Of a stretch of 64,000 nucleotides of DNA, positions 59,277-60,691 are shown one piece after another. Under the pieces are notes generated by a model. That model worked only from the letters and a program-made list of their open reading frames with translations, was not told the origin of the DNA and made no database searches. The stretch is from Escherichia coli (lineage in GTDB: Bacteria > Pseudomonadota > Gammaproteobacteria > Enterobacterales > Enterobacteriaceae). A program made the position numbers and the translations under genes. The stretch is from NCBI RefSeq assembly GCF_029227855.1, contig NZ_CP074356.1. One strand, 5' to 3'. Each line of letters opens with the position of its first letter. The stretch's first letter is position 1.

Positions 59277-60260
59277 TGGAGCACCTCAAAAACACCATCA
59301 TACACTAAATCAGTAAGTTGGCAGCATCACCTCGAACGTTTGCTTAATAACTTACGTAAGTGGACCAGTTCTTCTGAGTGAACTTAAATGGAGTAGCAAC
59401 AGTTAATTATAATAACGTTGCCATACAAACGCTATGCTCTTGCATGCTATGTACCTTTATATATTTATCAATCGGATACGAATCTAATAATAACTCTCAT
59501 CATTAATGCAACTAATCTTATCTATATATCATGTGATATGTTCTGTAACAAGTAAAATCAACATAAAAAATTCAGCAAAATTTAATATTCGTTCAACTAG
59601 CCGCCTCACATATGACATTATTAGTCAACTCCATTTGCCACAAAATGGCTATTTCATGGAACGCAGTAATTTCTTAGTGGCTATTATCATGCTAATTCTT
59701 AGGTCCCTAGCGATTATTCCTGGCTGGCTCGTCAGTTTAGGCCATGAGATTGTTACATTCCTTTTTATCATGGAGATATGGGGGAAAGCAGGAAACGATT
59801 TTTTCATCTACATTCGCTGGTAAATATGGCTTTGGTCACTACGACTTAAACCTTCCTCAATCACAGGTGTTCGCCGGGCGATACGGCAAACAAACTAAGT
59901 GAGGCATCACCCTGAAAACACCAACATCAACAAGCCTCTCCAGATCGACTTCAGGAGTGACCAGTTACAAGCCACAAACCAGGAAACATATTTCATGATG
60001 AGAATTATGCTCAGCCTGATGGCGGGTAAACACTGATTTTCACCAAGCTCACTGAGTTAGCTTGCAAAGCTTCCCTTGTTTAGACTCTAAATAAATTATT
60101 TATAAAACAAATAGTTAAACGAAGATCTTTAGTTTTTGAAGACCACCGCAAGTGTTCGTCTGGCTTCACATGGCATCTTCCTCTTAGAAAAAGATCGACA
60201 CATTTTGTGACACGAATTGCAAATCTGGTTTTGTTGTATGGATTGCGTGATTTTTGATCT

Positions 60261-60280
60261 GGTATAACAGGTATAAAGGT
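60261..60280. promoter_or_regulatory. NanR operator-like GGTATA repeats in the nanC upstream region
   Basis: ggtataacaggtataaaggt about 430 nt upstream of nanC. Confidence 0.55.
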
Positions 60281-60691
60281 GCACCAAGATAGTCAATGAG
60301 ACAGGGCATCTCGCAATCTATGGCAAACATCACTTCAGTTCTTTCTCATCGGGTGATGAAAACGCACTTCAGTCTGAAAGGAATATGAAAATGAGATCAA
60401 CAGACACTCTATTTTATGACTCTGGGTAAAATGGATTGAGTAAGTGATATAGCTTACGAACATTCAAATCAATTAAACATCAGAAGAGATTTTATACTCA
60501 GGTATTTAATCTGGCTCTCTGTTTATTTAAATAATGTGAAAAGAGATTTTTCACAGGAGACCTTATACAAAAAACATAAAATACAGCTACCGGTTGCCAA
60601 AGACACTATAAGCCTGGCAAAAAAATATTACACAACATAAATGCTAATTGTTTATGCGGGCTTTGTATTGCTTTCTGTATCCTACAAATGA

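What the first reader, a model, noticed from the sequence alone, without database searches (positions are those of the whole stretch)
59332..60691. 1.36 kb non-coding, AT-rich nanC upstream region retained intact next to the IS1
There is no credible ORF on either strand (only one low-complexity 105-aa frame), and the region contains GGTATA repeats typical of NanR operators. In K-12 this long intergenic region also carries far-upstream NanR/NagC sites that control fimB; here fimB is gone and IS1 now lies at its far end. nanC regulation may therefore be altered by IS1 outward transcription or changed DNA topology, and unannotated small RNAs cannot be excluded.
Basis: partly seen in the sequence, partly recalled or inferred. 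Interest (0 to 1): 0.3.

Follow-up and report, generated by a model that had tools for sequence, protein, structure and literature searches.

The report
Known nanC–fimB control region beside IS1
This stretch is the well-studied E. coli regulatory DNA between the sialic-acid porin gene nanC and the fimbrial switch gene fimB, kept almost whole in a small ETEC-containing lineage where an IS1 element replaced fimB and most of the type 1 fimbrial genes; it is ordinary and already explained.

Summary
Window 59333-60700 is a 1.37-kb, 37% G+C stretch with no conserved ORF, no Pfam hit and no Rfam hit. It is the E. coli nanC-fimB intergenic region: 97.6% identical to K-12 and present full length in 5010 of 5426 complete genomes.

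All published K-12 operators map onto it:
- NanR operator, 60261-60283
- NagC sites, 60199-60221 and 59987-60009
- SlyA sites, 59684-59710
- fimB transcription start, about 59516 on the minus strand

IS1 (58573-59331) abuts the region 87 bp upstream of where the fimB ATG would lie. On its other side is the last 893 nt of fimD. About 6 kb has therefore been lost (fimB, fimE, fimS, fimA, fimI, fimC and 5' fimD). Twelve complete genomes share both junctions exactly, including ETEC E24377A.

The idea that IS1 changes nanC control has no support. IS1 lies about 930 bp from the nanC-proximal operators. Its transposase promoter points away from nanC, and no hybrid outward promoter is visible.

The one untested twist is that the orphaned fimB promoter now reads straight into IS1. 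Interest is low; the region is already known.

The parts
57680..58572 (-). 3' remnant of fimD (last 893 nt including the stop codon); fimF, fimG and fimH follow further left
   Evidence: ORF list. PGAP calls it 'fimbrial usher FimD, incomplete, missing N-terminus' in F9792 and E24377A.
58573..59331 (-). IS1 element, 759 bp. IRR is at 58573 and IRL at 59331. insA is 59276->59001. It carries a 9-bp in-frame deletion in insB compared with the canonical 768 bp.
   Evidence: Terminal repeat matches. PGAP 'IS1 family transposase, programmed frameshift'. The IS1 promoter-like site within IRL is at 59324->59297. The canonical 768-bp length is from my own knowledge.
59332..59332 (.). Junction base T. 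It matches neither IS1 nor the G present in all eight other strains at this position.
   Evidence: Alignments.
59333..59516 (-). Retained first 184 nt of the 271-nt fimB 5' UTR, now fused to IS1 IRL. The last 87 nt, which include the ribosome-binding region, are deleted.
   Evidence: O_SA1 at -179..-168 (PMC3173223) places +1 at about 59516. The 271-bp UTR (PMC3911127) equals 184 + 87.
59517..59560 (-). fimB sigma-70 promoter region. Position is approximate and inferred from the transcription start; this stretch is invariant in 9 strains.
   Evidence: 59533-59582 is 100% invariant.
59506..59823 (+). Spurious 105-aa ORF overlapping the fimB promoter and the SlyA/H-NS sites
   Evidence: intact in 2 of 8 strains; no Pfam hit.
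59684..59710 (-). SlyA operators O_SA1 (59684-59695) and O_SA2 (59699-59710). The overlapping H-NS2 (59681-59690) and H-NS3 (59710-59719) motifs are also present.
   Evidence: Exact matches to the published sequences (PMC3173223).
59987..60009 (-). NagC operator O_NC2 ('fimB2' site), identical to K-12
   Evidence: Exact match to CATAATTCTCATCATGAAATATG; invariant in 9 strains.
60199..60221 (-). NagC operator O_NC1 ('fimB1' site) with one substitution (A->G at site position 21, window base 60201)
   Evidence: crude PWM score 18.7 -> 14.1 bits; allele in 18 of 4616 matching records.
60256..60283 (+). Dam GATC site (60256-60259) followed by the NanR operator GGTATAACAGGTATAAAGGTGCA (60261-60283)
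   Evidence: identical in 8 of 9 strains. Supporting papers: PMC8012715, PMC5934670, PMC5155068.
60284..60700 (+). nanC promoter-proximal region and presumed long (about 0.4 kb) nanC leader. The exact transcription start was not obtained here.
   Evidence: The operator lies upstream of the putative start (PMC3658417). No significant fold.
60701..61417 (+). nanC (238 aa), followed by nanM and nanS

Best explanation
The interval is the ordinary, well-characterised E. coli nanC-fimB intergenic regulatory region. It is an AT-rich, H-NS-bound spacer that carries two divergent promoters.

How it works in K-12:
- nanC is repressed by NanR at the GGTATA operator and induced by sialic acid. NagC modulates it.
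- fimB is activated from a distance by NanR and NagC, and also by SlyA.
- The NanR and NagC operators are shared by both promoters.

What differs in this genome:
- An IS1-associated deletion of about 6 kb has removed the last 87 bp of the fimB leader, fimB, fimE, the fimS switch, fimA, fimI, fimC and the first ~1.74 kb of fimD.
- One IS1 copy is left between the fimD remnant and the spacer. The strain therefore cannot make type 1 fimbriae.
- The nanC half of the region is untouched, so sialic-acid control of nanCMS should work as in K-12 (inferred).
- The fimB promoter and its operators survive as an orphan. It transcribes 184 nt of leader and then enters IS1 through IRL, in the same direction as insA/insB (shown by sequence; the consequence is untested).
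For: - Homology. The 1368-bp query is 97.6% identical to K-12 and found at 80% coverage or more in 5010 of 5426 complete E. coli genomes, with nothing annotated under it. In K-12 it lies between fimB and nanC.
- Operators. O_SA1, O_SA2, H-NS2, H-NS3, O_NC2 and O_NR are present as exact published sequences, and O_NC1 has one change.
- Spacing. The mapped positions relative to the fimB start reproduce the published spacing. The 271-nt UTR equals 184 retained plus 87 missing nt.
- Junctions. IS1 ends at 58573 and 59331. The flanking 9-mers differ (CGTTTTTCG and TCGAACGTT), so there is no target-site duplication. This fits a deletion rather than a simple insertion.
- Lineage. Both junctions are shared, each as a single aligned piece, by the same 12 complete genomes, including ETEC E24377A, F9792, F6326-C1 (O169:H41) and B4103-1 (O27:H7).
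- Source. The window differs from E24377A by 4 SNPs in 9789 bp.
- Not coding, no RNA family.
- Precedent. Comparable IS1-linked fim losses are published for Shigella/EIEC (PMC4374849) and for B1 EAEC/EAHEC between gntP and nanC (PMC8281228).
Against: - Nothing contradicts the identification.
- No expression data for this strain were examined, so 'nanC regulation unchanged' is an inference from sequence conservation.
- I could not read the primary papers that mapped the nanC start (Condemine 2005) or the NanR/NagC footprints (Sohanpal 2004, 2007). The nanC transcription start and the IHF site are therefore not placed precisely.
- The O_NC1 substitution could weaken NagC binding.
- The origin of the extra T at 59332 is unexplained.
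- The mechanism of the deletion cannot be decided from the sequence. It could be one-ended IS1 adjacent deletion(s), or recombination between two IS1 copies.
Confidence: 0.93

Rival explanations
1. IS1 has rewired nanC regulation. This could be through outward transcription from IS1 towards nanC, or through changed supercoiling or H-NS coverage of the spacer.
For: IS1 replaces the AT-rich fimB gene with 53% G+C DNA at the edge of a region that H-NS coats from about -500 to +150 of the fimB start (PMC3173223; composition). IS1 insertions elsewhere are known to create hybrid promoters (my own knowledge).
Against: - IS1's own promoter points away from nanC (59324->59297, minus strand). No plus-strand promoter-like site was found at the junction; the only plus-strand site is at 59744.
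- Any outward transcript would meet the convergent fimB promoter and would have to run about 0.95 kb to reach the nanC promoter.
- The nanC-proximal NanR and NagC sites are 870-930 bp from IS1 and conserved.
Confidence: 0.05
2. The interval hides an unannotated protein-coding gene: either the 105-aa frame or one of the short ORFs.
For: Two short ORFs are intact in all 8 other strains compared: 59418-59555 on the plus strand (45 aa, TTG start) and 60184-60333 on the minus strand (49 aa, GTG start).
Against: - The 105-aa ORF is broken in 6 of 8 strains.
- The two 'intact' ORFs sit on the fimB promoter/start and on the NagC/NanR operators. There the DNA is 90-100% invariant for regulatory reasons, so intactness tells us nothing.
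- No Pfam hits.
- PGAP calls nothing in any sampled genome.
Confidence: 0.02
3. The interval encodes a small RNA or a structured cis-regulatory leader that has not been described.
For: Both genes have unusually long leaders: 271 nt for fimB and about 0.4 kb inferred for nanC. The nanC-proximal 400 bp is 86-98% invariant in 9 strains.
Against: - No Rfam match better than E = 4.6, and all far below the gathering scores.
- The predicted folds are no more stable than shuffled sequence: z = +0.17 for the nanC leader and -0.75 for the retained fimB leader.
- No terminator-like sites.
- This level of invariance is ordinary for E. coli core DNA.
- The variation within the species is too small to test covariation.
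Confidence: 0.05

Closest known systems
E. coli K-12 nanC-fimB (yjhA-fimB) intergenic regulatory region (Blomfield/Plumbridge and Vimr laboratories)
   Same: Same locus and 97.6% identity. It has the same NanR operator, NagC O_NC1 and O_NC2, SlyA O_SA1 and O_SA2, H-NS motifs, fimB start and nanC side.
   Different: The last 87 bp next to fimB, and fimB itself, are replaced by IS1. There is one substitution in O_NC1 and about 30 scattered SNPs or indels compared with K-12.
IS1-associated inactivation or deletion of the fim cluster in Shigella/EIEC and in B1 EAEC/EAHEC
   Same: IS1 sits at the deletion boundary within the gntP-fim-nanC segment, and type 1 fimbrial genes are lost while nanCMS (yjhATS) is kept (PMC4374849; PMC8281228).
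   Different: The end points differ. Here they lie 87 bp upstream of the fimB ATG and about nt 1744 of fimD, and fimF, fimG and fimH are kept. These exact junctions are seen in only 12 of 5426 complete genomes.
Laboratory K-12 IS1 events at fimB/fimE (fimE::IS1 strains; MC4100 fimB-fimE deletion with IS1)
   Same: IS1 is repeatedly found in this AT-rich fimB-fimE neighbourhood: ER2683, the MC4100 lineage, NCTC86 and 2015C-3121.
   Different: Those events leave the structural fim genes intact. Here the structural genes fimA, fimI, fimC and half of fimD are removed.

Membership tests
nanC-fimB intergenic regulatory region of E. coli | Sequence homology along the whole spacer and adjacency to nanC | tested here: met
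   97.6% identity to K-12 over 1368 bp, ending at the nanC ATG.
nanC-fimB intergenic regulatory region of E. coli | NanR operator (GGTATA repeats with 2-3 nt spacers) preceded by a Dam GATC site | tested here: met
   60256-60283, identical to K-12. Two repeats are enough for high-affinity binding (PMC8012715).
nanC-fimB intergenic regulatory region of E. coli | NagC operators O_NC1 and O_NC2 | tested here: met
   O_NC2 is exact. O_NC1 matches 22 of 23 positions.
nanC-fimB intergenic regulatory region of E. coli | fimB promoter with SlyA/H-NS sites and a 271-nt leader | tested here: met
   The promoter and SlyA/H-NS sites are exact. The leader is cut after nt 184.
nanC-fimB intergenic regulatory region of E. 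coli | Divergent fimB gene at the far end | tested here: not met
   IS1 and a fimD remnant lie there instead. The region is a truncated derivative, not a different entity.
nanC-fimB intergenic regulatory region of E. coli | Actual binding of NanR, NagC and SlyA, and a Neu5Ac/GlcNAc response, in this strain | not testable with these tools
   Needs EMSA or footprinting and reporter assays.
IS1-mediated deletion | Complete IS1 with both terminal inverted repeats at the novel joint | tested here: met
   IRR at 58573 and IRL at 59331; PGAP annotates an IS1 transposase.
IS1-mediated deletion | No target-site duplication flanking the element | tested here: met
   The flanking 9-mers are CGTTTTTCG and TCGAACGTT.
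IS1-mediated deletion | Flanks are non-adjacent in the ancestral arrangement, and the intervening DNA is absent | tested here: met
   In K-12 and NCTC86, fimB to fimD lie between the two flanks. About 6 kb is missing here.
IS1-mediated deletion | Mechanism: intramolecular transposition versus recombination between two IS1 copies | not testable with these tools
   Both routes give the same product. No intermediate genome was found among the complete genomes.

The most novel reading that the evidence does not exclude
The orphaned fimB promoter keeps its NanR, NagC and SlyA activating sites, and there is no terminator-like site before the junction. It now reads through 184 nt of leader directly into IS1 IRL, in the sense direction of insA/insB. 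IS1 transposase or InsA expression, or occlusion of the IRL end, in this lineage might therefore respond to sialic acid, GlcNAc and H-NS/SlyA signals. That would make this IS1 copy a host-signal-regulated element. Alternatively the read-through may have silenced the copy; in a sublineage it has since acquired a 9-bp insB deletion.
Probability: 0.1. Interest if true: 0.3.

Novelty: already known. Interest (0 to 1): 0.08.

Why it matters
It matters little beyond annotation. The finding confirms that this ETEC-containing lineage, which includes the challenge strain E24377A, cannot make type 1 fimbriae because of an IS1-linked 6-kb deletion. It keeps the sialic-acid porin operon with its native control region. 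It also adds one more example of IS1 repeatedly hitting the AT-rich fimB/fimE neighbourhood. The only open point is the fimB-promoter-into-IS1 fusion, which is a minor curiosity.

Tried and rejected
- Rfam scan at E up to 10: only three chance hits (two snoRNA families and an HCV element), all far below the gathering scores.
- Pfam scan of nine ORFs: nothing at or below E = 0.1.
- RNA folding of the presumed nanC leader and of the retained fimB leader: z = +0.17 and -0.75, not structured.
- Promoter and terminator scan: 4 promoter-like sites against 6.1 expected, none outward from IS1, and no terminators. The scan did not recover the known fimB or nanC promoters either, so it is weak evidence.
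- Primary papers on nanC start mapping and NanR/NagC footprints (PMC1064066, PMC526197, PMC3807447) are not held. Operator sequences were taken from secondary sources instead.
- I tested whether the O_NC1 substitution reflects relaxed constraint after fimB loss. This was rejected: NCTC86 carries the same allele with an intact fimB.
- I tried to compare the O169:H41 locus L012 base by base, to ask whether the deletion allele spread horizontally. The locus file did not reach the scripting machine. Only shared protein accessions were compared.
- I did not run the large protein or metagenome searches. The ORFs are not conserved even within E. coli, so the cost was not justified.

Full report
**What is in the sequence**

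Reading 58000-62500 and listing ORFs gives the following order, left to right:
- the 3' end of fimD on the minus strand, up to 58572;
- an IS1 element, 58573-59331, with insA at 59276->59001 on the minus strand;
- a gene-free stretch;
- nanC (ATG at 60701), followed by nanM and nanS on the plus strand.

G+C is 36.8% in the flagged interval against 51.0% for the whole window. GGTATA occurs twice, 3 bp apart, at 60261-60275, followed by GGTGCA. The pattern GGTATANNNGGTATA is unique in the 64-kb window, with 0.05 matches expected by chance. The description is therefore accurate to within a base at the left end. At the right end the spacer really runs to 60700, because nanC starts at the ATG at 60701 and not at the GTG at 60692.

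**Identity**

A megablast of 59333-60700 against 5426 complete E. coli genomes found the stretch at 80% coverage or more in 5010 of them, mostly at 95-99% identity. No feature was annotated under it in any of the 30 genomes sampled across the ranking. In a K-12 strain (ER2683) the match lies exactly between fimB and nanC.

The three-way and nine-way alignments show that homology starts at 59333. That position is 87 bp upstream of where the fimB ATG would be. Base 59332 (T) matches neither IS1 nor the G that all eight other strains have there.

**Known regulatory elements, mapped**

Published operator sequences were located by exact search:
- SlyA O_SA1 (TTAGCATGATAA) at 59684-59695 and O_SA2 at 59699-59710, with the overlapping H-NS2 and H-NS3 motifs (PMC3173223).
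- NagC 'fimB2' (O_NC2) at 59987-60009, an exact match.
- NagC 'fimB1' (O_NC1) at 60199-60221, with one substitution (sites from PMC3098098).
- The NanR operator at 60261-60283, with a Dam GATC site at 60256.

O_SA1 spans -179 to -168, so the fimB transcription start falls at about 59516 on the minus strand. This agrees with the independently published 271-nt fimB 5' UTR (PMC3911127): 184 nt are retained and 87 nt are missing.

With that origin, O_NC2, O_NC1 and O_NR are centred at -482, -694 and -756. [quoted passage not shown]

NanR binding to this spacer is supported by genomic SELEX (PMC5934670). The GGTATA-repeat mechanism is supported by PMC8012715, which also shows that two repeats bind as tightly as three. 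The operator lies upstream of the putative nanCMS start (PMC3658417). nanC therefore probably has a leader of about 0.4 kb. I could not read the paper that mapped the start, so this is an inference.

**Not a gene, not a known RNA**

- The 105-aa ORF is intact in only 2 of 8 other strains. K-12 has a 1-bp indel, and ZH063 and FDAARGOS_1303 have a 12-bp insertion and a 1-bp deletion.
- Two short ORFs are intact everywhere. They sit on the fimB promoter and on the NagC/NanR operators, where the DNA is nearly invariant anyway, so this says nothing.
- None of nine ORFs has a Pfam hit at or below E = 0.1.
- Rfam gives only three chance hits at E above 4.
- The predicted folds of the presumed nanC leader and of the retained fimB leader are no better than shuffles, with z = +0.17 and -0.75.
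- No terminator-like site was found.

**The IS1 junction and the deletion**

The IS1 terminal repeats lie at 58573 (IRR) and 59331 (IRL). The 9-mers on the two sides differ (CGTTTTTCG and TCGAACGTT), so there is no target duplication. The flanks are about 6 kb apart in K-12.

The missing DNA comprises the last 87 bp of the fimB leader, fimB, fimE, fimS, fimA, fimI, fimC and about 1744 nt of fimD. This estimate comes from the coordinates, with the strain-specific IS1 of ER2683 subtracted.

This is the signature of an IS1-associated deletion. It could have arisen by one-ended adjacent deletion(s) or by recombination between two direct IS1 copies. The sequence cannot distinguish these.

Junction-spanning queries show that both junctions are shared, each as a single aligned piece, by the same 12 of 5426 complete genomes:
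- E24377A (O139:H28 ETEC)
- F9792
- F6326-C1 (O169:H41)
- B4103-1 (O27:H7)
- CUVET21-37
- MLI114
- MLI121
- WWCOL-315
- RMDEC332
- WP8-S18-ESBL-07
- MB06101
- AST262

Four of these (E24377A, WP8-S18-ESBL-07, AST262, RMDEC332) also share the 9-bp in-frame deletion in insB that makes this copy 759 bp long. That change is therefore later than the deletion. The window differs from E24377A RefSeq by 4 SNPs in 9789 bp, so it comes from E24377A or a very close relative.

**Does IS1 affect nanC?**

Nothing in the sequence suggests so.
- IS1 is oriented with IRL towards nanC. Its own promoter (59324->59297) fires away from nanC, and no plus-strand promoter-like site lies at the junction.
- The nanC-proximal operators are 870-930 bp from IS1.
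- The only operator change is the A->G substitution in O_NC1 (window base 60201). It hits a position that is A or T in all ten reference NagC sites and lowers a crude PWM score from 18.7 to 14.1 bits.
- That allele is also present in NCTC86 and three other strains (six records). NCTC86 still has fimB, so the change predates the deletion and is unrelated to IS1.
- Effects through H-NS spreading or supercoiling cannot be assessed computationally.

**A small twist**

The deletion end point lies inside the fimB leader. The fimB promoter, with all its activating sites, is therefore intact and now transcribes into IS1 in the sense direction of insA/insB. From my own knowledge, read-through transcription across IS1 ends was reported in the 1980s to depress IS1 transposition (Machida et al., Cell 1983). 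I did not verify this citation here. Whether the fusion has any consequence is untested. I rate it a low-probability, low-to-moderate-interest possibility.

**Context and precedent**

IS1 recurs around fimB and fimE:
- fimE::IS1 in K-12 ER2683;
- the MC4100 lineage;
- NCTC86, between fimB and fimE;
- 2015C-3121, with IS1 IRL inside the first codons of fimB in the same orientation as here.

IS1-linked fim inactivation with retention of yjhATS/nanCMS is published for Shigella and EIEC (PMC4374849). It is also published for B1 EAEC/EAHEC between gntP and nanC (PMC8281228).

**Verdict**

The regulatory speculation about IS1 is unsupported. The feature is a known region next to a lineage-specific, unremarkable IS1 deletion. 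Interest is low.

Noticed in passing
window 58573-59331 (deletion near 58670-58680): This IS1 copy is 759 bp, not 768. A 9-bp in-frame deletion in insB removes three residues (…HLAR|KSLS…). It is shared only with E24377A, WP8-S18-ESBL-07, AST262 and RMDEC332. The other eight genomes with the same junctions have a full-length IS1.
   Followed up: partly
window 60201 (within the NagC site at 60199-60221): O_NC1 has a G where all ten reference NagC sites have A or T; a crude PWM score falls from 18.7 to 14.1 bits. The allele occurs in 18 of 4616 matching records. These include NCTC86, which has an intact fimB, so the change predates the fim deletion.
   Followed up: yes
L006 (strain 2015C-3121) 236-330; L013 (NCTC86) 1429-2126; L002 (K-12 ER2683) 4068-4765: Independent IS1 insertions lie within or next to fimB/fimE in unrelated strains, in the same orientation as here in all three. 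The AT-rich fimB-fimE neighbourhood looks like a recurrent IS1 target.
   Followed up: partly
window about 35983-36700: A second, degenerate IS1 lies here; PGAP calls it 'frameshifted; internal stop' in E24377A. It sits between mdtM and a BrnT/BrnA toxin-antitoxin pair. From memory, K-12 carries the hsd-mcr-mrr restriction cluster at this position.
   Followed up: no
window 62581-63588: nanS reads as a full-length ORF here (335 aa from a TTG start; the K-12-like protein starts at MNAIIS). PGAP nonetheless annotates only a partial 'sialate O-acetylesterase' pseudogene in E24377A, F9792 and K-12 ER2683 alike. This is probably an annotation artefact.
   Followed up: partly
window 59332: A single T at the IS1/spacer joint matches neither IS1 nor the G present in all eight other strains aligned. 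Its origin (point mutation or junction-formation artefact) is unexplained.
   Followed up: partly
L012 (F6326-C1, O169:H41) compared with L011 (E24377A, O139:H28): Strains of different serotypes (O139:H28, O169:H41, O27:H7) share identical deletion junctions and mostly identical neighbouring protein accessions over about 20 kb. This could reflect common descent with O-antigen switching or horizontal spread of the deleted allele. I did not resolve it.
   Followed up: no
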